This document shows, piece by piece, positions 4,564 to 55,645 of a stretch of DNA of 64,000 nucleotides (within the stretch, counting starts at the first letter, position 1; each line of letters begins with the position of its first letter). The stretch lies in the NCBI GenBank assembly GCA_000995065.1, contig LBWX01000004.1:14431-78430 (forward strand). The letters run 5' to 3'. The notes beneath the pieces were generated by a model. That model worked only from the letters and a program-made list of their open reading frames with translations, was not told the DNA's origin and ran no database searches. The stretch comes from a candidate division CPR2 bacterium GW2011_GWC2_39_35. GTDB lineage: Bacteria > Patescibacteriota > CPR2. Both the position numbers and the translations under genes were made by a program.

Positions 4564-6499
4564 AAATTAATGTCCCCACGTATTGGTCGCTTGGTTGATT
4601 TTGATTTACTTCTATAGCATACGTGACATATGCATCGGAGCCAAGATCTTTAGAATCCTTATACATAACCGGATGTGCTGTCGTGCTAACCGGCCCAAAT
4701 TTTGCCGAGGCACTGGACCAGCCTGCAACCCTGGTATCATTTGTATTAGCGCCTAACCAACCAGAATCTGAGTTTGTGGACCCGGTTGGACTACTCCAAG
4801 TAGTCGGCGTATCCCAGCTCCCCGTAAAAGGGTCTATCTTATTAGCCGGATATTGTCCCTGCATATAAGCCTGCATTTTTATATTAACCGTATAGCCATT
4901 GGCGGCCGTAGTTTCTACATGAAGCTTTTGGGCGGCATACTCGGGTGATCCGATTTCTAGCTTTCCAAAGGGAACTAAATTATAATCAGTACTTGCCGTA
5001 GTTGTAACGCCATTGGTACTGGTTCCCGATGTTACCCCTTCGACCTTAAAAGTGAGTGATGCCGTATCTTGAATATCATATGACACCGTACCCATATCCA
5101 CCAAGGTCGAGCCTGCATCGCTATAAGTTTTGATGGTAATATTGCAAGTATCATACATAAACCCGGCAATAGTGCAGTCCTCTATTTCAGGATTAATAAC
5201 CCCATTAAGAGGAATGGTAATACTATCACCCAAATTTTTACTTTCACCACCGCCCGAAATTTTTACTAAACCGCTACCAGCACTACTTGTGCTATAAGTC
5301 CAACTACCGTTTGTTAGGCCCGTCATAGTGCCTAACGTCGAGGAGCTAAGGTTTAGATTTGTCGGCTTAGTAGCATCCCCTGCCGCTTTCTCAAACTGAA
5401 AGTCTATTTGCTTAATCGTCGCCGTTGTTCCTAAGGTAAATTGAATAGTATGAGTCGAGGCAGTTCTCGGAGTTATAACAGAAAGCGTATCAGACATACT
5501 GGTTAAGGGATTATAAGGCGTTAAAGTAGCTTTATAGATGTCTTTGTGAGTGTTTCTGGCATCTTGCCAAACCGCGGTTCCGTTATAAATAGCCGGAATC
5601 TTTTGGTCTTGGGAACCGGTAACCACGATAGTCTCTAGTGACTTAGAAATCTGATAAGCATATACATCGGAATTTCCGGAACGAACATCCTCATAAACTA
5701 TGATATCACTGTAAATTCTTGGATACCTAGGATCAGCGCTTCCAGAGGTAATCTGACTGTTTGAACTTTGAGTTAGGTCATATTTGTGAACACTATAATT
5801 ACCGGTAGCAGGTGCTTTTTGGTAAACAAGCTGATCACTGTAAATATGAGGGTAATTTTCATTTGCAGAGTTATTTGTTATTTGAGTTTCACTGCTTCCG
5901 GCTAAGTTATTCGTGAAAACATCATCATTTCCGTTCCTATTATCATAATAAGCAATTTTTTGATCATAAATGACCGGATTTTTTTGGTTTGAAGAGTCAG
6001 TTGATATCTGAGTTTCTTGGCTGGCCTGTAAATCATACATATAGATATCATCGTTTCCATTTCGATTATCCACATACACAATTTTTTGTCCATAAATAGC
6101 CGGATATGTTTGGTCTGACAGATTAGTAGTCACCTGAGTTTCGCTGCTGCCGGACAAATCATAAACGTAAATATGAGAATATGTACCGCCCCGATCACAT
6201 GAATATACGATCTTGTCCCCATCTATGTCGGGATTATATTCATTGGCGCTAGTATTGGTAATTCTCGTCTCAGAACTAGTACCAGTATTATACATGTAAA
6301 TTTCAGTATTTCCATTCCTAGTATCCTCATACACTATTTTCCCAGCAGAAATTCTTGGTTTTGTTTGATCTGAGGAATCTGTAGTTATTCTAGACTCCAC
6401 CACTAATAGGTTTGCCAACGAATAACCGAAATTACCAAATAAAAATACAAAAATAGCTAAATAGACGGTTATTTTTTTGGCAAACACACTTTTAACCAT
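4541..6499 (-). CDS. secreted TolB-like (PD40/WD40-like) beta-propeller repeat protein with conserved C-terminal domain
   Basis: 652 aa; signal peptide; seven to eight ~38-aa repeats 'NGN(D)D(I/V)YMYDL..S.ETQ(I/V)T...S.Q..P.IY..KIVY.D.RNGN'; last ~150 aa are homologous to the C-terminus of ORF 9135..10286. Confidence 0.55.
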   Translation of the reverse strand: MVKSVFAKKITVYLAIFVFLFGNFGYSLANLLVVESRITTDSSDQTKPRISAGKIVYEDTRNGNTEIYMYNTGTSSETRITNTSANEYNPDIDGDKIVYSCDRGGTYSHIYVYDLSGSSETQVTTNLSDQTYPAIYGQKIVYVDNRNGNDDIYMYDLQASQETQISTDSSNQKNPVIYDQKIAYYDNRNGNDDVFTNNLAGSSETQITNNSANENYPHIYSDQLVYQKAPATGNYSVHKYDLTQSSNSQITSGSADPRYPRIYSDIIVYEDVRSGNSDVYAYQISKSLETIVVTGSQDQKIPAIYNGTAVWQDARNTHKDIYKATLTPYNPLTSMSDTLSVITPRTASTHTIQFTLGTTATIKQIDFQFEKAAGDATKPTNLNLSSSTLGTMTGLTNGSWTYSTSSAGSGLVKISGGGESKNLGDSITIPLNGVINPEIEDCTIAGFMYDTCNITIKTYSDAGSTLVDMGTVSYDIQDTASLTFKVEGVTSGTSTNGVTTTASTDYNLVPFGKLEIGSPEYAAQKLHVETTAANGYTVNIKMQAYMQGQYPANKIDPFTGSWDTPTTWSSPTGSTNSDSGWLGANTNDTRVAGWSSASAKFGPVSTTAHPVMYKDSKDLGSDAYVTYAIEVNQNQPSDQYVGTLIYAITPTY

Positions 6500-6592
6500 T
6501 ACTTCTATCTTAACCTAAATAAGTTAATTTACCAATCAGAAATACGAGGATTACTAAGTGTTGAGATGGATTTGAAGTATAATATGAATTAC

Positions 6593-6714
6593 GAATGTCA
6601 AATGTCAAAATCCAAATGCCAAATCAAATCCTAAATCCAAATGTTAAAAAATATCATTTAGTCATTAAGTCATTTGTCATTCATTTGACATTTGAAATTT
6701 GAGCTTTGACATTG
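6593..6714. repeat. long AT-rich inverted repeat of the 'CAAATGTCAAATGA' family, copy 1
   Basis: Left arm gaatgtcaaatgtcaaaatccaaatgccaaat... pairs with right arm ...agtcatttgtcattcatttgacatttgaaatttgagctttgacatt. Confidence 0.6.
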
Positions 6715-6727
6715 CATATACACGCTT

Positions 6728-7516
6728 CTAGTAGTTCCTATCAACCTCTCCATAAACCAGGGAGGAAATGTTTTTAATAGTACCCTCAACATTAGCCAGA
6801 TTTGGATTATTGCTTTTGGTCATCACGCACAGAAGATAAGGATTGTCCGGATGATACACTATCCCGCAATCGTGCAATTCACGCTTGGAAAGAATAGCCA
6901 TATCCCCGCCAACAGGCTGAACCTCAGTAAAAAGACCAAACTTATGTGCAACATCTACTCCTTGAGGAACCCCGGCTACCAACCCTTCCTTAAAATCTAC
7001 CTGGCTTAATAGATTAAGTGCTTTCTCGGAGAGTTCCCTTCTCAAATAAGTCGCGTTATAAAGCACTCTAAAGAAATACGAAAAATCACCGGCCGTCATA
7101 TAATCTTGGGTTGATCTATCGGTTGGAGGAGAGAGCTGTAAATCTTTAAATGCCGTATCTAAAACCTGGCGATCTATATTATGCATCAGAGTATTGGTAG
7201 AAATATTATCGGAATATTTTATCATTTTCTCTATCAATTCTTCTACCGTATATGTGTTACCGCTTTTTGCAAAATCTTTCGGCTTTATTTCTAGCTCTCC
7301 GTTGGTATCCGGTTCGGTTATTGTAATTTTCTTAGATAAAATTCCCGGATCAGACCTCGCCGCATTTAAGTAACCAATCATTATCGGAATTTTGTGCAAA
7401 CTGGCCGGAAAAAATTTCTCTTCCGGATTGATGTTTACTTGATTGCCCGACTTGATATCCCTAAAAAAAACAGAAGCCGTATTTACATTGCCAGACTCCA
7501 CCTCTTTATCTACCAA
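6728..7516 (-). CDS. class-A beta-lactamase / PBP-like serine hydrolase, paralog 1 (no signal peptide in this ORF)
   Basis: 262 aa; SxxK motif (PASLHK), SDN motif (YSDNIST), KxG motif (HKFG); about 55% identical to ORF 7917..8699; ORF as called starts at a TTG. Confidence 0.5.
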   Translation of the reverse strand: MVDKEVESGNVNTASVFFRDIKSGNQVNINPEEKFFPASLHKIPIMIGYLNAARSDPGILSKKITITEPDTNGELEIKPKDFAKSGNTYTVEELIEKMIKYSDNISTNTLMHNIDRQVLDTAFKDLQLSPPTDRSTQDYMTAGDFSYFFRVLYNATYLRRELSEKALNLLSQVDFKEGLVAGVPQGVDVAHKFGLFTEVQPVGGDMAILSKRELHDCGIVYHPDNPYLLCVMTKSNNPNLANVEGTIKNISSLVYGEVDRNY

Positions 7517-32325: not shown

Positions 32326-32413
32326 GAAAGCTCCTTAATCTGTATGTATTCCTTTACCCTAGCCCTCTCCAAAAAGGAGAGAGAATAGAGAACATATTTT
32401 TGATTTTGAATTA

Positions 32414-39185: not shown

Positions 39186-39232
39186 CCTCTTTCTCCCTCT
39201 TCCTTAAGGGAGAGGGTTGGGGTGAGGGGGGG
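39186..39232. repeat. GC-rich palindromic element 'CCCTCTCCC-TTAA-GGGAGAGGG(TTGGGGTGAGGGG)', copy A
   Basis: cctctttctccctcttccttaagggagagggttggggtgaggggggg in the rpsE-rplR intergenic region. Confidence 0.55.
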
Positions 39233-40533: not shown

Positions 40534-40542
40534 TGTGCCTCC

Positions 40543-40728
40543 TTACCAGGAACTTTTTGTTACGCCCGGAATTTCGCCTCGAGAAGCGTACTCTCTGAAG
40601 CAAATTCGACACATACCATATTTTCGAATGTAAGCCTTAGGTCTGCCGCAAATTTGGCATCTCGTGACTTTTCTTGTCGAAAACTTAGGTTTTCTTTGGG
40701 CTTTTACTATTAATGCTTTTCTTGCCAT
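40543..40728 (-). CDS. rpsZ: 30S ribosomal protein S14 type Z (zinc-binding)
   Basis: 61 aa; [23 protein letters not shown]. Confidence 0.9.
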
Positions 40729-40750
40729 AACTCTCCCTATAAATTAACCT

Positions 40751-40801
40751 TCCTCTTTCTCCCTCTCTCTCAAGGGAGAGGGCAGGGGATGAGGGGGGGG
40801 G
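40751..40801. repeat. same GC-rich palindromic element, copy B
   Basis: tcctctttctccctctctctcaagggagagggcaggggatgagggggggg in the rpsZ-rplE intergenic region. Confidence 0.55.
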
Positions 40802-40806
40802 TGTAC

Positions 40807-46667: not shown

Positions 46668-47055
46668 ATTTTCCTTTTATCTTCCCTCGCCCGAAGTTCG
46701 AGGAATGATTTCGAACAAAGCGACATCCGTTACTTTACAAAAAAAACTATTTGGACAGTTAGGCAGTTTCCCATTCGGGACTATCCCAACTCTCCACTCG
46801 ATTTTTGTATAATTCCTTTTTCCCTAAATAATCTCAGGGACAATTTTTAAATGAATGTTGACTTAAAAAGTATATATATAAACTCTAAATTTGTCAAGAA
46901 GAAAATGCCATTGGCTAATAGGCTAATTGGCTTATGGACTAACGGGTATCAAAACCTGAAATTTATACATTAAATGACATAATTCTCACGATCGTAGTCA
47001 TTCCGTCATCTTGGGATACCAGTTATGTTATTGTGATTATAAAGAAATAGCATGC

Positions 47056-47108
47056 TTCTTAAAAACATGAGGATGGAAGCAACCGGGGCAAGAAGCCGCC
47101 ATCCTCAT
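47056..47108 (-). terminator. rho-independent terminator after ORF 47122..47517
   Basis: 10-bp stem atgaggatgg/ccatcctcat followed (on the minus strand) by GTTTTTAAG. Confidence 0.5.
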
Positions 47109-47121
47109 AAAGACACTGATT

Positions 47122-47517
47122 CTAGATTGCTACGTACTCGATTTCCGATCGAGTTAAATCCCTTAGAAGCTTTTCGCGGTCTATCGTCTTAAACAAGACG
47201 ATCATACGACTCCAACCTGGTTGTTTTCGCATCGCCTTTTCTAAAGCCTCATCTCTACGAGGGTTATTACTCTCACCATAAGCACCTTGTAGCAACCTCT
47301 TCATAACATCGGCAGTCTTATTGTCCTTGATGTAGAAATTTATAAAAGACTCTTTTCTACCGATATCAAGGTAATCCACTACAACATCATAGTTTTCAGT
47401 TGATTTGACCTTTACTTCACTCGACACTTCTTCGCCTGGTCTTACAATGATAATCTTAATCCTTTCCATAACAATTACTACCTCCGCTTCCTGATCTGGA
47501 CCCCAATTTATTGTCAA
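47122..47517 (-). CDS. hypothetical small soluble protein, possibly PII-like fold (inserted between rpsJ and rplC)
   Basis: 131 aa; alternating beta/alpha pattern; weak resemblance to PII/DarA-type proteins (..FYIKDNKTADVMKRLLQGAYG.., ..RMIVLFKTIDREKLL..); not a confident family call. Confidence 0.3.
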   Translation of the reverse strand: MTINWGPDQEAEVVIVMERIKIIIVRPGEEVSSEVKVKSTENYDVVVDYLDIGRKESFINFYIKDNKTADVMKRLLQGAYGESNNPRRDEALEKAMRKQPGWSRMIVLFKTIDREKLLRDLTRSEIEYVAI

Positions 47518-47704
47518 TCTTGCAACTGCATATTCTATGTGAACTTAGGGTAAAAGTCAATTGAAAGTTTTTAATGCGCAAAAAAGCAACCATTTGACCT
47601 AAAACAGCTCCTTATGATTTAATATAAGTATAGTTAATAATGATTGGCCAGAAGCTTGCTAGTTGATAACCAAGCATATGGCCAACTAATAAAAAGGAGA
47701 GAAA

Positions 47705-48115
47705 ATGTCAGTAGAAATGAATAATGACGGAGCAGCTCCAGTAGCTACCGAATCAAAGCCAGAAGCGAAAGCAATGCCGGAAGAATTAAAAAAGTTTAAC
47801 TGGGGCGCATTCCTCTTAACCTGGATCTGGGGTATTGGCCATAGCGTTTGGCTTGCTCTTGCCGGATTAGTTCTTATCTTTATTCCTGTAATTGGATTTT
47901 TGGGAAGTATTGCTTTTGCAGTCTATCTAGGAGTAAAAGGCAATGAACTTGCTTGGAAGACCGGAAAATATACCGACGTAGAGGCTTACCTAGCTCTAGA
48001 GAAAAAATGGATGATTGCCGGACTTGTCGTAGTTGCTCTTGGCTTTGTTCTAGCTTTCATGATGGGCGCTGCAATTGTTTCTATGATCACCGGTGGCATG
48101 CTAAACGGCAGCTAA
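47705..48115 (+). CDS. hypothetical small membrane protein (3-4 TM), plus strand inside the ribosomal super-operon
   Basis: 136 aa; good RBS (aaaggagagaaaATG); hydrophobic helices; followed by a terminator. Confidence 0.5.
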   Translation: MSVEMNNDGAAPVATESKPEAKAMPEELKKFNWGAFLLTWIWGIGHSVWLALAGLVLIFIPVIGFLGSIAFAVYLGVKGNELAWKTGKYTDVEAYLALEKKWMIAGLVVVALGFVLAFMMGAAIVSMITGGMLNGS

Positions 48116-48132
48116 GTAATAAATAGTTTACT

Positions 48133-48162
48133 AAAAAGCGGGCCCAAAGACCCGCTTTTTTA
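48133..48162. terminator. rho-independent terminator after ORF 47705..48115
   Basis: aaaaagcgggcccaaagacccgcttttttat. Confidence 0.6.
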
Positions 48163-48555
48163 TTTGTCTAAAATAATAGAGGCAAAAGGTTGAGCTTGTT
48201 TTAAATTTACTTACTCAAGATTTGCCTCCATCATCTTCTCTAGAATATCTTTTAGCTTTTTGCTATTCGCTAAATGTTCAACTGCTCTTCTGAATCTAAA
48301 CCTGACATCCTTAATACCATTGGCAACAATATCTATGTTGCTAATAGATAGCGATTCTGTCTCTATTGTTTCTTTTCTTTCTGCCCTTTATCTTTCCCTT
48401 TGCAATTACTCCGATTGGATATCTTTTTCTGCTTAAATTCAGGTATACTTAATAGCCCAATAGTTGTCGTCTTCGCTCTAATAATAAGCGTTTAGACGTT
48501 TGAAATTTGATGATTGATTATCTATTTAAAATTTGAAATTCATAATTGAAAATTC

Positions 48556-48591
48556 AAAAACCGCCCTTTAATTAGCTCTGGGCGGTTTTTG
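48556..48591 (-). terminator. rho-independent terminator immediately after rpsJ
   Basis: aaaaaccgccctttaattagctctgggcggtttttg: stem ccgccc/gggcgg plus T-run on the minus strand. Confidence 0.55.
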
Positions 48592-48599
48592 TTATAAGT

Positions 48600-48958: not shown

Positions 48959-50140
48959 TTACTTAATGACCTTAATTACTACTCCAGAGCCAACGGTTCG
49001 GCCACCTTCCCTGATAGCGAATCTCATTCCGTCTTCCATAGCAATTGGGGCTATAAGTTTAACTTTCATTTTGATATTATCGCCAGGCATAACCATTTCT
49101 ACGCCGTCTGGTAGTGTAACTTCACCAGTTACGTCGGTAGTTCGGATATAGAACTGTGGTTTATACCCTTTAAAGAATGGGGTGTGTCGTCCACCTTCCT
49201 CTTTGGTTAAGATATATACTTCGCCTTCAAATTCAGTATGAGGAGTAATTGAACCCGGCTTAATGGCCACCTGACCTCTTTCGATATCGTCTTTTTCGAT
49301 ACCTCTAAGAAGTAAACCAACATTGTCTCCAGCTACGCCTTCGTCAAGCAGTTTTCTAAACATCTCCACGCCGGTTACAACAGTCTTCCTTGTTGGGTGA
49401 ATACCAACGATTTCAACTTCTTCGTTAACCTTAACTTTTCCTCTTTCAATTCTACCGGTAGCAACTGTGCCTCTTCCCTTAATAGAGAAAACGTCTTCAA
49501 CTGCCATTAAGAATGGTTTGTCGATATCTCTTTTTGGTTCTGGGATGTATGAGTCAAGGGCATCCATCAGTTCATCAATAGTCTTGGTGTAATTTGCATC
49601 ACCTTCTAAGGCTTTAAGGGCAGAACCTCTAATGATTGGAACGTCGTCGCCAGGAAATTCATATTTAGAAAGAAGTTCTCTGATTTCCATTTCAACAAGA
49701 TCCAAGAGCTCTGGATCGTCAACCATATCAACTTTGTTCATATAAACAACGATGTATGGAACGCCAACGTTCTTTGCAAGTAGAATGTGTTCTCTAGTTT
49801 GTGGCATTGGTCCGTCAGCAGCGGATACTACTAGAATAGCGCCGTCCATCTGAGCCGCACCAGTAATCATGTTTTTAACGTAGTCGGCGTGACCAGGACA
49901 GTCGATGTGAGCATAGTGTCTTTTTTCGGTTTCATACTCCTGGTGGGAAGTAGCGATGGTAATTCCTCGCTCTCTTTCTTCCGGAGCATTGTCGATGTCT
50001 GCAAATGCTCGAGCCTGCGCCATGCCTTTTTTAGACAACACGTTAGTAATAGCAGCAGTCAAAGTGGTTTTACCGTGGTCAACGTGGCCAATGGTACCCA
50101 CATTGACGTGCGGTTTTGTTCTTTCAAATTTTTCAGCCAT
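48959..50140 (-). CDS. tuf: elongation factor Tu
   Basis: 393 aa; [22 protein letters not shown] motifs. Confidence 0.97.
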
Positions 50141-50500
50141 ATTTTCCTTTCCTATTTGGATTAGCCTGCCTACAGGCAGATTTTTTATTTCGCCCGATCA
50201 TACGACCCGCATGGGAGGGCGATCCGCCCTGGGCGGAAAATTAAATTTAAATTAGTCTACAAAATAATCTGTGGACGAATTGCTTCTCCCACTACTTGAA
50301 AAAGTATACATAACTTGAGGGTTTTTTGCAAGTATTTTTTCTTAGCAATCAAACGAATCTATTCCCTCGCTATCCTCTAAACGTAAAGAAAGTGCATTTA
50401 TCCCTTTACACAAGGGATAAGAAATGTTATAATTATTGGCTGTCAAAAGACAGGAACCTTCACATGCTGGCACCGGTTGTCAGCCCAGAGATGAAAGGAA

Positions 50501-51196
50501 GTGGTAGAAATGGGGATCAAGAATACATTGGAATGGGGCAGGTATAATAGACTTGCCAAAGATCTCTCGGATCACGACCAAGAACCGAGAATCAAGCGAT
50601 CTTTGTACCGAGAGCTTGGCACAACTGATTCAGACATCGAAGTAACACCTGAGCTCTGCGAGCTCATTATCGAGAGTCTGAATCCTAACGACCACGAAAC
50701 CGTCATTGTCGAGGCACAAAAAGCAATTGGACGGTGTTCGAAAAAGCTGTGCAAAGAGTACAAGCCATGGGAGTTATTCCCGATCATCGATTACATCCAC
50801 AGCTACAGAATAGCGCGGCCGGCGCGAGAGTACTTTCCGGCAAACATGTTTTTCTACATAACAAAAGTGAATTGGCCAAAGGAATTTCTAGCGGAGCAAA
50901 TCATGGGACAAAACCATGTCGTCGAAGGAGCAGCTACCATTGCCTGTAGTCTGGGCCAAGCCAAAGATATCGACACTAAAAGTCTATCTGCTAAAAATTG
51001 CAAAAGCGTCAAAAAGGGTATAGAGGATGCGTTTTGCTCTTCTTATATCTTTGGACTACCTTACGGATTAGGCAACCCTAAGTCCATCGACGAGCTCATG
51101 TACGACCATGAAGATAATGCCGTGAGAAATGCCGCATACGCCTACCGAGAGGCAGACTACAGACACAATCAGAAAATCAAGCGCAAGGTTTCATAA
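50501..51196 (+). CDS. hypothetical protein in a GC-rich insertion between tuf and fusA (possible alpha-helical repeat protein)
   Basis: 231-aa ORF; local GC is clearly above that of the flanking ribosomal genes (e.g. gcgcggccggcgcgagag); followed by a strong terminator; no recognisable family. Confidence 0.4.
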   Translation: MVEMGIKNTLEWGRYNRLAKDLSDHDQEPRIKRSLYRELGTTDSDIEVTPELCELIIESLNPNDHETVIVEAQKAIGRCSKKLCKEYKPWELFPIIDYIHSYRIARPAREYFPANMFFYITKVNWPKEFLAEQIMGQNHVVEGAATIACSLGQAKDIDTKSLSAKNCKSVKKGIEDAFCSSYIFGLPYGLGNPKSIDELMYDHEDNAVRNAAYAYREADYRHNQKIKRKVS

Positions 51197-51227
51197 CCTC
51201 CTTTCTGCACGTAAGTTTCGAAGGCTT

Positions 51228-51269
51228 CGGCCTCAGATGTCTTTTGTCTGAGGCCGATTCTATTTTTTT
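51228..51269 (+). terminator. rho-independent terminator after ORF 50501..51196
   Basis: ggcctcagatgtcttttgtctgaggcc + gattctattttttt. Confidence 0.65.
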
Positions 51270-51589
51270 AAACATTTACTCGCCCAAATAAAAGGATCAC
51301 ATTCTTTTTAATAAACATTTAAAAAGGACAAGTTGCTTGTCCTTTTTAAAAATACCCCCCTTAATACATTTGGTAGATTGGCTATATTATCTACCTATTT
51401 AGAGCGAGAATCAGCACCTATTAATACAAATCACCAAGCGGTTGAAGAGTTAGTTTTGGAATAATGCACAAAAGGTTCAGTATCTAGTATTTTGTATCTG
51501 GTATTTAGTATAAAAAAAGACCTCTTGGTCTCTGTTTTGGTCTAAAACGAGTGAAGCCGGTGTAGTGTAGAAGATTGTTTTTTATGCGC

Positions 51590-51840
51590 TTTGCGCCAAC
51601 CTCAGCACCGATCACCGGCCTCGAAAATATTTGGAAAGAGTCTTCCTCTTGAAGCACATCCCTGCTCATCGACCCTCAATACTGGCACTAGCGCCAAAAA
51701 GTGGGGTCGCACGAGGCGGAAAGGGCCAAAGGCATTAGTTTCCCTGGTCTTGTGCGACCATGCCAAGCGATCCGCCATCAAAGCACCTCATCATGCCACC
51801 TTCAGCACTTTGATTAAAATCAGCGCACTCTTTCCAAAAA
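51590..51840. other. GC-rich non-coding block; candidate structured RNA or decayed foreign DNA
   Basis: About 250 nt with much higher GC than surrounding intergenic DNA; internal complementarity (ggtcgcac...gtgcgacc); the only ORF here (86 aa) has non-protein-like composition. Confidence 0.25.
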
Positions 51841-52002
51841 CTGTTTATTAAACAACAATTTATGTTTGAAAGTATATCATATTTTTCATTTTTGTCAATA
51901 GTTTTCTAGATAATTGATTGTTTATTTAAAAATTTTGGCTTTTTGTAGGCATTTTTCCCCAAAAAGGGTCGCACCCTCGGAAGAGAGCGACCCTTTAATA
52001 CT

Positions 52003-52072
52003 AGATTCCCGCCTTCGCGGGAATGACGAAGAAAGAGGATGAGATTGCTTTGTCGCAAAGCCTCCTTAGAGT
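52003..52072. repeat. related palindromic element (cccgccttcgcgggaatgacgaag...gatgagattgctttgtcgcaaagcctcc)
   Basis: Shares gatgagattgctt.gtc.caaagcctcc with the 8959..9046 copy. Confidence 0.4.
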
Positions 52073-52074
52073 GA

Positions 52075-52110
52075 CCCCTCACCCCAACCCTCTAGCCTCA
52101 AGGGAGAGAG
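52075..52110. repeat. same GC-rich palindromic element, copy C (opposite orientation)
   Basis: cccctcaccccaaccctctagcctcaagggagagagaat just 3' of fusA. Confidence 0.5.
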
Positions 52111-52175
52111 AATAAAAAAAGCCCCATCACTGAGGCTTTTTTGTTTATTGTTCGATTGTTTATTGCTTATTAATT

Positions 52176-54254
52176 CTATTTAGCTGCTGTTCTCTTGCCG
52201 ATAATCTCTTCGGTTACGTTTCGCGGTACTTCTTCGTAATGATCGAATTCCATGGTGTAAGCGGCACGTCCTTGGGACATTGATCTTAAGGTTGTCGCGT
52301 AGCCGAACATCTCGGCTAGAGGCACATGAGCATCAACTACCTTTACCCCCGCCCGTTCATCCATCTTCTGGATTCTGCCGCGCTTAGAATTTAAGTCGCC
52401 CATCACGTCACCCATGAATTCTTCCGGTGTGGTAACTTCTACCTTCATAATAGGCTCTAATATAATAGGATCGGCCTGTTTTACACCGGCCTGGAGGGCC
52501 ATGGAACCGGCAATCTTAAAGGCCATTTCGGAAGAGTCAACTTCGTGGAAGGAACCATCGTATAGCGTCGCTTTAACGTCTACTACCGGATAGCCGGCAA
52601 TAACACCGTTCCCCATAGCTTCCCTTATGCCCTGCTCTACCGGATTAATGTATTCCTTGGGAATAGTGCCGCCGACAATTTTATTAATAAATTCATAGCC
52701 TTTGCCGGACTCGTTCGGTTCGATCTCGAGCCAAACATGGCCGTACTGGCCTCTACCGCCGGACTGCCTGATGAATTTACCTTCGATCTTGGTACTTTTC
52801 TTGACGGTTTCTTTGTAAGCCACCTGGGGTTTGCCAACATTGGCCTCTACTTTAAATTCCCGCTTCATTCGGTCAACGATGATTTCTAAGTGAAGCTCGC
52901 CCATACCTTCGATAATAGTCTGTGCTGTTTCTTCGTTAGTTTTAACTCTAAAAGTTGGGTCTTCTTCTGCAAGACGAGATAATGCGATTCCCATTTTTTC
53001 CTGGTCTGCCTTGGTCTTAGGCTCGATAGCCACCGAAATAACCGGCTCCGGAAATACGATTTTTTCTAAGACAATCGGCTTGTCCACATCGCAAAGAGTG
53101 TCGCCCGTAGTTGTGCCCTTAAGCCCCACTGCCGCAGCAATCTCGCCGGCAAAAACTTGGGGCACTTCTTCCCTCTGGTTAGCGTGAAGTCTAATGATCC
53201 GGCCGATTCTTTCCTTGTCTCCGGTTGTTGCGTTTAGAATATAGGAGCCGGATTTTATATTACCCGAATAAACTCTAAAGAAAGCAAGCTTCCCGACAAA
53301 CGGATCGGCCGCAATCTTAAAAGCCAATGCTGAAAACGGCTCGGAGTCAGAAGCTGTTCGCTCCATTTCTTCCCCAGTTTTCGGATGAGTTCCCTTAACT
53401 GCCGGGACATCTAACGGATTTGGCAAGTAGCTAATGATAGCGTCAAGAAGCATCTCGACAACCACACCTCGCCCATCGCCGCCGAGCACCGGAAAAAAGT
53501 CGCCCTTAAGAACTGATTTTCGAATCGCTTCGGCAAATTCTGCGCTGGTGATCTCTTCGCCGCCCAGATATTTTTCCATTAAAGCGTCATCGGCCTCAAT
53601 AGCCTTTTCTAATAGTTCGTTACGATATTTTTCGGCTTTCTCCTTCATGTCCGCGGGAATATCACTCTCTTTTAATGTTTTATCCTTGTAGTCGTCGTAA
53701 ACGTAGGCCTTCATGGAAACCAAGTCGATGGCGCCGTTAATTCCCTGCTCGAAACCGATTGGCAACTGAAGAGCAAAAGCGTTAGGACTTAATCTGTCTC
53801 TTATGGAATCCAGGGACTTATAAAAATCGCCGCCGGTCTGGTTGATTTTATTGATAAAACAAATTCGCGGAACGTGATATTTGTCAGCCTGTCTCCATAC
53901 TGTTTCGGATTGAGGCTCAACACCCATCTTGCCGTCGAAAATAACCGCCGCACCGTCAAGAACTCTTAAAGACCGTTCTACTTCTACGGTAAAGTCTACG
54001 TGACCCGGGGTGTCGATGATATTAATTCTTTTGCCTTTCCAAAAACAGGTGGTAGCAGCCGAGGTAATAGTAATACCTCTTTCTCGTTCCTGCTCCATCC
54101 AGTCCATGGTAGCTTCGCCCTGATGAACTTCACCAATTTTGTGAGTTCTTCCGGTAATATACAAAATACCCTCAGTAACCGTCGTTTTACCGGCGTCAAT
54201 GTGGGCAATAATGCCAATGTTTCTAGTATTCTCTAAACTGTATTCTCTAGCCAT
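52176..54254 (-). CDS. fusA: elongation factor G (start trimmed to [25 protein letters not shown])
   Basis: GTPase motifs [21 protein letters not shown]-like; ~690 aa from the trimmed start. Confidence 0.95.
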
Positions 54255-54287
54255 AAATCTCCCTAAATTCGTAAATTTAAATAATAA

Positions 54288-54428
54288 ATTCCTAATTGAT
54301 CTAATTTCTAATTTATAATAAAACCCCAATTTCTAAATGTATAATGTCTAAAATTTTTCCTTTGACATTGGTCATTTTGTCATTGGGATTTTATTAGGTC
54401 AATTAGGTTAATTAGAAATTAGACATTC
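54288..54428. repeat. AT-rich inverted repeat of the 'CTAATTTCTAAT / ATTAGAAATTAG' family (fusA-rpsG intergenic)
   Basis: Left arm cctaattgatctaatttctaatt ... right arm ttaggtcaattaggttaattagaaattagaca. Confidence 0.5.
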
Positions 54429-54430
54429 TA

Positions 54431-54907
54431 TTAATATCTAGCCAAATGCGCAAACGCCCTGTTTGCTTCAGCCATCTTGTGAGTATCTTCCTTCTTCTTG
54501 ATGGTTGTGCCGACGCCGTTATAAGTATCTAGAAGTTCTCCAGCTAAAGCCTTGTCAAAAGACATGCCTTTTCTAGCCCTGGCAGCAGCTAAAATCCATC
54601 TAATTGCAAGAGATAATCTTCTTGGATTTCTAACTTCTATTGGAACTTGATATGTGGCCCCGCCGATTCTTCTGGATTTTACCTCTAAAACCGGGGAAGC
54701 ATTTTTTATTGCAGCCTCAAAAACTTCTAAAGGACTTTTCTTCGTCTTTTCACCAACAATATCTAAAGCCTTGTATAAAAGATTATAAGCTAAATTCTTT
54801 TTGCCATCCCACATCATTTTTTGGGCAAATTTAGTAACTAAAATACTATTGTATTTTAGGTCTGGCAAAATTTCTCTTTTTTCTACTTTTCTTGGATCTC
54901 TTGGCAT
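54431..54907 (-). CDS. rpsG: 30S ribosomal protein S7
   Basis: [37 protein letters not shown]... Confidence 0.9.
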
Positions 54908-55471: not shown

Positions 55472-55645
55472 TAAATTTCTAATTGCTCTAATTACTAATT
55501 TCTAATCAAATCTCAATTTCTAAATCTCTAATTTACCACCCTCGCCCCAACCCTCTCCCATTAAGGGAGAGGGAAAAATTTAGTCATTTTGTCATTGGTG
55601 CTTGGGAATTTATTAGATCAATTAGGTAGATTAGAAATTAGACAT
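55472..55645. repeat. 'CTAATTTCTAAT' inverted repeat with a nested GC-rich palindrome (rpsL-rpoC intergenic)
   Basis: aatttctaattgctctaattactaatttctaatcaaatctcaatttctaaatctctaattt ... [ccctctcccattaagggagaggg] ... tagtcattttgtcattggtgcttgggaatttattagatcaattaggtagattagaaattagacatt. The right half is about 75% identical to 54365..54425. Confidence 0.5.
55536..55577. repeat. same GC-rich palindromic element, copy D (opposite orientation, nested in the AT-rich inverted repeat)
   Basis: caccctcgccccaaccctctcccattaagggagagggaaaaa. Confidence 0.5.

What the first reader, a model, noticed from the sequence alone, without database searches (positions are those of the whole stretch)
50160..52175. GC-rich 2-kb insertion between tuf and fusA carrying an orphan 231-aa gene
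fusA and tuf are normally adjacent. Here they are separated by a segment with visibly higher GC than the rest of the window. It encodes a plus-strand 231-aa protein of unknown family with a strong terminator, followed by ~900 nt of non-coding DNA. The composition suggests horizontal acquisition into a highly conserved locus.
Basis: seen in the sequence. Interest (0 to 1): 0.5.

Follow-up and report, generated by a model that had tools for sequence, protein, structure and literature searches.

The report
Orphan-gene islet between fusA and tuf
In one candidate-phylum (CPR2) bacterium, about 1.8 kb of lineage-specific DNA lies between the genes for elongation factors G and Tu; it carries a protein gene with no known relative and probably a small structured RNA gene, and this kind of variable insert is common at this spot in its wider group.

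Summary
The 2,035-bp fusA–tuf gap, the plus-strand ORF, its terminator and the ~980-nt non-coding tail are all real. The ORF most likely starts at ATG 50510, giving 228 aa.

"GC-rich" holds only in part. The gap is 42.1% GC, above the window mean of 39.1% (89th percentile). That is below tuf (43.2%) and fusA (45.9%) but above other intergenic DNA (34%).

The closest relative (EF-G 90% identical) has an empty 183-bp gap. Other relatives hold unrelated content, so this is a lineage-specific insert. It sits between the fusA terminator and a conserved tuf promoter.

ORF228 has no homolog in 1.84 billion cluster representatives or in Pfam, NCBIfam, PHROGs, PADLOC or PDB. It still looks like a gene:
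- its open frame is longer than in any of 5,000 shuffles;
- it has a near-consensus promoter, an RBS and a terminator;
- its GC3 is foreign-looking, 52% against 37% in native genes.

The tail holds a second unit on the minus strand, ~51864→51510. It has a near-consensus promoter, a ~355-nt GC-rich core with no coding signal and strong predicted folding, and a terminator. No Rfam family or homolog matches it, so it is a candidate orphan sRNA. REP-like palindromes lie beside it.

Expanded fusA–tuf spacers are common in Patescibacteria. The case is ordinary, and the function is unknown.

The parts
52115..52142 (-). Intrinsic terminator of fusA (12-bp stem plus T-run). The hairpin is symmetric, with an A-run and a T-run on either side, so it may work in both directions.
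   Evidence: terminator scan; sequence
52075..52115 (.). REP-like dispersed repeat, CCCTCACCCCAACCCTCT...AGGGAGAGAG. Other copies lie in intergenic DNA at 39194-39229, 55539-55578 and 32356-32387.
   Evidence: alignment A1
52003..52030 (.). Palindromic element GATTCCCGCCTTCGCGGGAATGACG. A 28-nt stretch is 100% identical just after fusA in relative L011. The element also occurs in a proteobacterial MAG (L050) and in L112.
51963..51996 (-). Hairpin AAAGGGTCGC...GCGACCCTTT followed by TTTTT on the minus strand. It looks like a second barrier to read-through from fusA.
   Evidence: I7; sequence
51871..51898 (-). Near-consensus sigma-70-type promoter TTGACA-16-TATACT with a TG extended -10 (11 of 12). 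It is one of only 10 sites at or above 11/12 in 128 kb of both strands.
51510..51864 (-). Candidate ~355-nt structured small RNA with no coding signal. The ends are inferred from the promoter and terminator, not mapped. A 12-bp perfect closing helix pairs 51827-51838 with 51630-51641.
   Evidence: MFE -123.9 kcal/mol, z = -4.36 on the minus strand against -2.23 on the plus strand. Excess folding energy is in the top ~1-2% of 142 control windows. It is 50% GC, the highest among non-coding stretches. All six frames have negative coding log-odds. No Rfam match. Helix (I11).
51516..51533 (-). Intrinsic terminator that closes the candidate RNA (7-bp stem, then TTTTTTTAT).
51318..51350 (.). Perfect 15-bp palindrome flanked by an A-run and a T-run. 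It looks like a bidirectional terminator or insulator between the two convergent units.
   Evidence: I4
51227..51257 (+). Intrinsic terminator of ORF228 (13-bp stem, 7 G-C pairs).
50510..51196 (+). ORF228, an orphan protein gene (228 aa from ATG 50510, or 231 aa from GTG 50501). It is predicted all-alpha and soluble.
50405..50433 (+). Near-consensus promoter of ORF228, TTTACA-17-TATAAT with TG (11 of 12). It diverges from the tuf promoter.
50303..50331 (-). tuf's own promoter, TTGCAA-17-TATACT. It is conserved in position and sequence in relatives L171, L172, L173, L175 and L012, and marks the tuf-side edge of the insert.
   Evidence: alignment A2
50160..50245 (.). About 85 nt of extra GC-rich hairpin-forming sequence inside the tuf 5' UTR. 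The closest relatives lack it.
   Evidence: A2, columns ~175-257; sequence

Best explanation
This is a lineage-specific accessory islet of about 1.8 kb (~50341-52115). An extra ~85 nt also sits inside the tuf 5' UTR. The islet lies at a transcription-unit boundary of the str operon, between the fusA terminator and tuf's own conserved promoter. This junction tolerates insertions in Patescibacteria.

The islet carries two convergent, separately insulated transcription units.
1. ORF228 on the plus strand, with its own near-consensus promoter, RBS and terminator. It encodes a soluble all-alpha protein with no detectable relative. Its third-position GC suggests fairly recent acquisition from a more GC-rich donor.
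2. A ~355-nt GC-rich, strongly folding non-coding transcript on the minus strand, again with its own near-consensus promoter and terminator.

REP-like palindromes and several terminators flank the units. These would keep fusA read-through and antisense transcription out.

Shown: the anatomy, the absence from relatives, the orphan status, and the coding and folding statistics. Inferred: that both units are expressed, and that the DNA arrived by recombination. One plausible route is homologous recombination through the highly conserved fusA and tuf flanks after DNA uptake. The function is unknown. My best guess is a dispensable strain-level accessory function, not a role in translation.
For: - Insert boundaries and lineage specificity: L171 (EF-G 90% identical) has a 183-bp spacer that aligns only to the window's tuf promoter/5' UTR and RBS. 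L012 has ~165 bp. L172, L173, L175 and L011 have 865-1,004-bp spacers whose contents match neither each other nor the window.
- ORF228 is likely real. The open frame exceeds all 5,000 shuffles. Its own frame has the best codon log-odds of the six. GC1/GC2 of 0.49/0.36 match native genes (0.49/0.38), while GC3 is 0.52 against 0.37. It has an 11/12 promoter with TG, an RBS and a terminator.
- ORF228 is an orphan. The word-indexed search of 5.8 billion proteins found only itself. The exhaustive phmmer search of 1.84 billion representatives found only itself plus one low-complexity artefact. Pfam, PHROGs, NCBIfam, PADLOC, PDB, phage records, plasmid records and viral contigs gave nothing.
- Candidate RNA: supported by the promoter and terminator, strand-asymmetric folding (z = -4.36 against -2.23), top ~1-2% of control windows, the highest GC of any non-coding stretch and no coding signal.
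- The junction is permissive in this phylum. In Saccharibacteria, tuf-promoter/terminator and rpsJ-promoter cassettes gave working marker and reporter expression, and these bacteria are naturally competent (PMC10633639).
Against: - No expression data exist for either unit.
- All 24 contigs that carry the islet are essentially clonal. There is no sequence variation to test purifying selection on ORF228 or covariation in the RNA.
- ORF228's codon log-odds (0.05) is below every native gene (minimum 0.17). The single-sequence AlphaFold model is unusable, with pLDDT 36.
- There are no mobility genes, target duplications or terminal repeats, so the route of acquisition is unproven.
- Two of the 142 control windows show similar excess folding energy, so the folding signal alone is not decisive.
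Confidence: 0.6

Rival explanations
1. The gap is decaying junk. On this view ORF228 is a spurious or dying reading frame, the GC-rich stretch is the relic of a former gene or a cluster of REP elements, and nothing here is functional.
For: No homolog anywhere. Weak codon adaptation. Low-confidence structure model. Relative L173 has an 867-bp, 23% GC spacer with no ORF, which looks like decayed DNA at the same site. REP-like repeats are present.
Against: A 233-codon open frame is far beyond chance. The only two 11/12 promoters with an extended -10 in 128 kb both sit here, correctly placed upstream of the ORF and of the folding core, and each is paired with a terminator. GC1 and GC2 are protein-like. 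No frame of the GC-rich core shows a residual coding signal.
Confidence: 0.2
2. The content is ancestral and was lost differentially. On this view the CPR2 ancestor already had a large fusA-tuf spacer with these genes, and relatives lost or replaced them.
For: Several relatives have ~0.9-1.0-kb spacers. The 28-nt palindrome after fusA is shared 100% with L011.
Against: The spacer contents share no detectable similarity at DNA or protein level. The nearest relative has the minimal spacer. ORF228's GC3 and tetranucleotide usage are atypical for this genome. The shared palindrome also occurs in a proteobacterial MAG, so it is a promiscuous element and not a marker of ancestry.
Confidence: 0.1
3. 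ORF228 and the convergent RNA form one functional module, for example an RNA-protein pair of the toxin-antitoxin or phage-defence kind, which moves as a unit.
For: The two are adjacent, are both absent from relatives, and are each independently promoted and terminated.
Against: PADLOC and Pfam gave no hit. There is no ToxI-like tandem repeat array. The RNA does not overlap the ORF. Predicted RNA-mRNA duplexes were no better than controls in any convincing way. No second occurrence of the pair exists anywhere to show linkage.
Confidence: 0.1

Closest known systems
Strain-specific genomic islets with ORFan genes at operon or transcription-unit boundaries
   Same: Absent from the nearest relatives at the same site. 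Atypical codon usage in the cargo gene. Own promoter and terminator. Inserted between a terminator and the next promoter, so neighbouring essential genes are not disturbed.
   Different: Only 1.8 kb. No integrase, tRNA attachment site, direct repeats or insertion-sequence remnants. The cargo has no homolog at all.
Expanded fusA-tuf spacers of other Patescibacteria, which often hold a small gene with a weak Phd/YefM-like N-terminus
   Same: Same junction and same phylum-level tendency. Spacers of 400-3,100 bp with extra genes were seen in about 20 loci.
   Different: In those lineages the recurrent small gene is on the same strand as fusA and tuf, and forms a recognisable family. The window has no trace of it. 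Its gene is on the opposite strand and is unrelated.
Independently transcribed bacterial small RNAs bounded by a sigma-70 promoter and an intrinsic terminator, detected as GC-rich islands in AT-rich genomes
   Same: Near-consensus promoter, Rho-independent terminator, no coding signal, GC well above the intergenic background, strong strand-specific predicted folding.
   Different: No homolog, no covariation support, no expression evidence and no Rfam family. At ~355 nt it is long for a trans-acting sRNA.
REP / MITE-like palindromic intergenic repeats
   Same: Short GC-rich palindromes that recur in several intergenic regions of the same genome, usually next to gene ends.
   Different: They make up only about 150 nt of the gap and do not explain the ORF or the 355-nt core. 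One palindrome (ATTCCCGC-N4-GCGGGAAT) also occurs in unrelated phyla.

Membership tests
Horizontally acquired genomic island/islet | Absent at the orthologous site in close relatives | tested here: met
   L171 (EF-G 90% identical) has a 183-bp spacer and L012 ~165 bp. The others hold unrelated content.
Horizontally acquired genomic island/islet | Composition atypical for the host genome | tested here: inconclusive
   The whole segment is not an outlier: GC at the 89th percentile and below both flanking genes, tetranucleotide distance at the 69th percentile. ORF228 alone is atypical: GC3 0.52 against 0.37, codon log-odds 0.05 against a mean of 0.35, tetranucleotide correlation in the lowest 2.4%.
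Horizontally acquired genomic island/islet | Mobility signatures (integrase or transposase, tRNA target, flanking direct or inverted repeats) | tested here: not met
   No tRNA in the region. No convincing terminal repeats. ORF228 is the only gene and matches no family.
Any described protein family (Pfam, NCBIfam, PHROGs, PADLOC, PDB) | Significant profile or sequence match for ORF228 | tested here: not met
   Zero hits at E<=1 in the four profile libraries and at E<=10 in PDB. The exhaustive phmmer search found only itself plus a low-complexity artefact.
Any described RNA family (Rfam 15) | Covariance-model match at or near the gathering score in 50100-52300 | tested here: not met
   No gathering-level hit in the gap. 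The best E-value-mode hits score 20-26 bits against thresholds of 45-100. ARAGORN finds no tRNA or tmRNA.
Independently transcribed small RNA gene | Promoter and intrinsic terminator on the same strand bracketing a non-coding segment | tested here: met
   TTGACA-16-TATACT with TG at 51898->51871, and a terminator at 51533->51516. All six frames have negative coding scores.
Independently transcribed small RNA gene | Conserved secondary structure (covariation) in homologs | not testable with these tools
   No homolog in 165 related loci (nhmmer) or in viral contigs. All carrier contigs are clonal.
Independently transcribed small RNA gene | Detected transcript | not testable with these tools
   No transcriptome data are available here.
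Type III toxin-antitoxin (ToxIN-like) | Tandem array of short RNA repeats immediately upstream of, and co-directional with, the protein gene | tested here: not met
   Only trivial 7- and 14-nt AT-rich repeats were found. The RNA candidate is convergent with the ORF, not upstream of it.
Patescibacterial small gene between fusA and tuf with a weak Phd/YefM-like N-terminus | Same-strand small ORF with an N-terminal motif of the type 'KTGDR-IV...YVVMSLEEYEKL' | tested here: not met
   tblastn of those ORFs against the window gap gave nothing better than E = 0.02.
REP-like dispersed palindromic repeats | Several similar copies in intergenic regions of the same genome | tested here: met
   The element at 52075-52115 has copies at 39194-39229, 55539-55578 and 32356-32387. 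This applies to that ~40-nt piece only.

The most novel reading that the evidence does not exclude
The ~355-nt GC-rich transcript, bounded by a promoter and a terminator, could be a previously undescribed structured RNA. It might work together with the orphan protein ORF228 as a new two-part RNA-protein module, for example for defence or addiction. If so, the module was captured in the str operon of a CPR bacterium, and it has no relative in current databases.
Probability: 0.08. Interest if true: 0.5.

Novelty: new member of a known kind. Interest (0 to 1): 0.2.

Why it matters
The importance is limited.
- The fusA|tuf junction is fixed in most bacteria. In Patescibacteria it is a transcription-unit boundary that repeatedly collects lineage-specific genes. 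That is useful for annotation and for choosing neutral insertion sites in CPR genetics.
- The case adds one well-delimited orphan gene and one candidate orphan sRNA, both testable with existing aquifer metatranscriptomes and metaproteomes.
- It does not change what is known about translation-factor operons. No function can yet be assigned.

Tried and rejected
**Structure of ORF228.** AlphaFold without an alignment gave pLDDT 36. The model is unusable, so I ran no fold search.

**Searches for relatives that led nowhere.**
It returned only distant relatives (76% identity or less) and did not even recover the source population. It gave no information on close relatives.
- The only non-self protein hit, P0002, is a low-complexity repeat artefact.

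**Apparent strain variation.** Differences at 48344-48400 and 52283-52337 between carrier contigs are N-filled scaffold gaps. One carries Illumina adapter sequence. They are not biology.

**RNA-RNA pairing.** I tested pairing between the candidate RNA and the ORF228 or tuf translation-initiation regions with RNAduplex. Over such long inputs the result is not meaningful, with control fractions of 0.03 and 0.28.

**Folding calibration.** A first genome-wide run timed out. The reduced run used only 15 shuffles per window, so its z-scores are noisy. I used the energy differences instead.

**Identities considered and rejected for the GC-rich core.** RNase P RNA, tmRNA, SRP RNA, 6S RNA, group I and II introns, and HEARO or omega RNA. 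None reached a convincing Rfam score and ARAGORN found no tmRNA.

**Another GC-rich intergenic stretch.** The stretch at 40534-40806 turned out to be the short rpsN gene plus a REP-like element.

**Literature.** Searches for this junction in CPR and for the palindromic element found nothing specific.

Full report
**Organism and anatomy**

The window carries the rpoC–rpsL–rpsG–fusA–tuf–rpsJ–rplC... cluster on the minus strand. Database names for the identical proteins place it in "candidate division CPR2 bacterium", within Patescibacteria/CPR. tuf is at 48959-50140. fusA ends at 52176; its likely start gives 692 aa, as in public annotation. The two genes are 2,035 bp apart.

**Observation check**

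The plus-strand ORF, its terminator and the ~980-nt tail without ORFs are all present.
- The ORF most likely starts at ATG 50510, with AGGAAG 8 nt upstream. This gives 228 aa and matches the public protein P0001.
- An open frame this long is not chance. No shuffle out of 5,000 of the gap reached it, and 0.05 are expected per shuffled 64-kb window.

The "GC-rich" claim is only partly right.
- The segment is 42.2% GC against a 39.1% window mean, the 89th percentile. It is lower than tuf (43.2%) and fusA (45.9%).
- Its tetranucleotide profile is unremarkable, at the 69th percentile.
- Against other non-coding DNA (pooled 34.1%) the gap is richer. The stretch 51522-51846 is 50% GC, the highest of any non-coding 300-nt stretch and above the tRNA cluster.
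- ORF228 itself has GC3 of 0.52 against 0.37 in native genes, while GC1 and GC2 are native-like (0.49/0.36 against 0.49/0.38). Its codon log-odds is 0.05 against a native mean of 0.35 and minimum of 0.17.

**Is it an insertion?**

I ranked relatives by EF-G identity and fetched their contigs.

| Locus | EF-G identity | fusA–tuf spacer | Content |
|---|---|---|---|
| L171 | 90% | 183 bp | empty |
| L172 | 86% | ~865 bp | two small same-strand ORFs |
| L173 | 84% | 867 bp, 23% GC | no ORF |
| L175 | 82% | 1,004 bp | a 158-aa ORF |
| L011 | 73% (84% over the C-terminal query) | 992 bp | a 122-aa membrane ORF |
| L012 | 78% (81% over the C-terminal query) | ~165 bp | empty |

- None of these contents resembles the window's or each other's, at DNA or protein level.
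- All of them share the tuf-proximal ~150-200 nt. This is an A-run, then CTTGCAA-N17-TATAcT, a 5' UTR motif and the RBS AAGGAAAGGAAAAT (alignment A2).
- In the window this promoter is at 50331->50303. tuf therefore has its own promoter throughout the clade. The islet sits between the fusA terminator (52142->52115) and that promoter.
- A further ~85 nt of GC-rich hairpin sequence lies inside the window's tuf 5' UTR (50160-50245). The closest relatives lack it.

Beyond this clade, spacers differ by phylum.
- In non-CPR bacteria the fusA–tuf spacer is 10-60 bp.
- In about 20 Patescibacteria loci it is 400-3,100 bp.
- Many of the Patescibacteria loci carry a recurrent small same-strand gene with a sub-threshold Phd/YefM-like N-terminus. 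The window lacks it.
- "Normally adjacent" is therefore true of bacteria in general but not of this phylum.
- In Saccharibacteria, tuf-promoter/terminator and rpsJ-promoter cassettes gave working marker and reporter expression, and the cells are naturally transformable (PMC10633639). This fits the junction being a unit boundary. It also fits DNA gain by recombination, but that route is my inference.

**ORF228**

ORF228 has no detectable relative.
- The word-indexed search of 5.8 billion proteins found only itself, in 24 or more essentially clonal contigs.
- The exhaustive phmmer search of 1.84 billion cluster representatives found only itself plus a low-complexity artefact.
- Pfam, PHROGs, NCBIfam, PADLOC, PDB sequences, phage and plasmid records and viral contigs gave nothing.
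- AlphaFold without an alignment is unusable (pLDDT 36), though it predicts an all-helical protein.

It still looks like a gene.
- Its own frame has the best codon score of the six.
- It has an 11/12 promoter with an extended -10 (50405-50433), an RBS and a strong terminator.
- Only ten sites at or above 11/12 exist on both strands of the 64-kb window. Others sit in front of the tRNA cluster and of rplC. The only two with a TG extension are both in this gap.

**The "non-coding tail"**

Reading on the minus strand from fusA:
1. The fusA terminator.
2. A REP-like element with at least three other copies in intergenic DNA of the window.
3. A palindrome, ATTCCCGC-N4-GCGGGAAT. It is 100% identical over 28 nt just after fusA in L011, and is also present in a proteobacterial MAG.
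4. A second terminator-like hairpin (51996->51963).
5. The promoter TTGACA-16-TGaTATACT (51898->51871).
6. A ~355-nt segment ending in an intrinsic terminator (51533->51516).

That segment has these properties:
- It folds to -123.9 kcal/mol with z = -4.36 on the minus strand, against -2.23 on the plus strand.
- Its excess folding energy of about -24 kcal/mol is matched by only two of 142 control windows.
- It has negative coding scores in all six frames.
- It matches no Rfam family, tRNA or tmRNA.
- It has no homolog in 165 related loci or in viral contigs.

I therefore call it a candidate orphan small RNA. Covariation and expression could not be tested. A perfect 15-bp palindrome (51318-51350) and the ORF228 terminator separate the two convergent units.

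**Interpretation**

The best-supported reading is a lineage-specific accessory islet at a permissive boundary of the str operon. It carries an orphan protein gene, probably of foreign origin given its GC3 and codon bias, and a candidate sRNA. Both are insulated by terminators, so fusA and tuf expression is not disturbed.

There are no mobility signatures. The way it arrived is unknown. Recombination through the conserved fusA and tuf flanks is a plausible inference. The function is unknown. A dispensable strain-level role is more likely than a role in translation.

Rivals are non-functional decaying DNA, ancestral content lost elsewhere, and a linked RNA-protein module. All are less well supported, but none is excluded without expression data.

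**Verdict**

This is an ordinary kind of feature (an ORFan islet) in a phylum where this junction is often expanded. Interest is low. The candidate RNA is the only element that might repay follow-up.

Noticed in passing
window 46668-48599: A second expansion in the same operon region. The rpsJ-rplC spacer is 1.9 kb and holds two ORFs without family matches: 47122-47517 (minus strand, 115-131 aa) and 47705-48115 (plus strand, 136 aa, membrane-like). Relatives have 270-450 bp here (L171, L173, L012) or other genes (L175 has a PHP-domain gene). Unlike ORF228, these two ORFs have native-like codon usage (log-odds 0.32 and 0.39). An 11/12 promoter at 46897->46869 precedes rplC.
   Followed up: partly
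L016, L020, L024, L025, L028, L034, L041, L048, L060, L083 (between fusA and tuf): Many Patescibacteria carry a recurrent small (~85-150 aa) same-strand gene between fusA and tuf, with an N-terminus like 'M..L..I.KTGDR.IV...YVVMSLEEYEKL'. These ORFs form a blastp-connected family. They give only sub-threshold Pfam hits to Phd/YefM (E = 6e-4 to 6e-3) or RelB-like antitoxin domains. No toxin partner was looked for.
   Followed up: partly
window 52003-52030; L011 9061-9096; L050 10708-10753; L112 3522-3541: A short palindromic element (core ATTCCCGC-N4-GCGGGAAT; the window's copy reads GATTCCCGCCTTCGCGGGAATGACG) is 100% identical over 28 nt between this CPR2 genome and relative L011, in both cases shortly after fusA. 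It also occurs in a proteobacterial MAG and in another metagenome contig. Its nature (promiscuous REP or MITE-like element, or an assembly or contamination artefact) is unexplained. A literature search on its typical spurious peptide translations found nothing.
   Followed up: partly
window 54101-54462 (minus strand) and 6401-6762 (minus strand): In the calibration scan, two other windows showed excess folding energy similar to the candidate RNA (about -24 and -21 kcal/mol against shuffles). One spans the AT-rich rpsG-fusA spacer and the 5' end of fusA. The other spans an intergenic region that also holds an 11/12 promoter (6608->6579). They may be leaders or further small RNAs.
   Followed up: no
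L003, L004, L006, L008 against window 48344-48400, 49577-49584 and 52283-52337: Older public assemblies of the same population contain N-filled scaffold gaps at these positions. In L004 a piece of Illumina adapter (GATACGGCGACCACCGAGATCTAC) sits inside fusA, which produces shortened or altered EF-G predictions of 684-685 aa. This is an assembly artefact, not strain variation.
   Followed up: yes
window 40534-40806: This stretch was flagged as a GC-rich 'intergenic' region (45% GC). It is the short rpsN gene (61 aa, zinc-type S14) plus a REP-like CCCTCTCCC...GGGAGAGGG element. Folding is not significant (z about -1.6 on both strands).
   Followed up: yes
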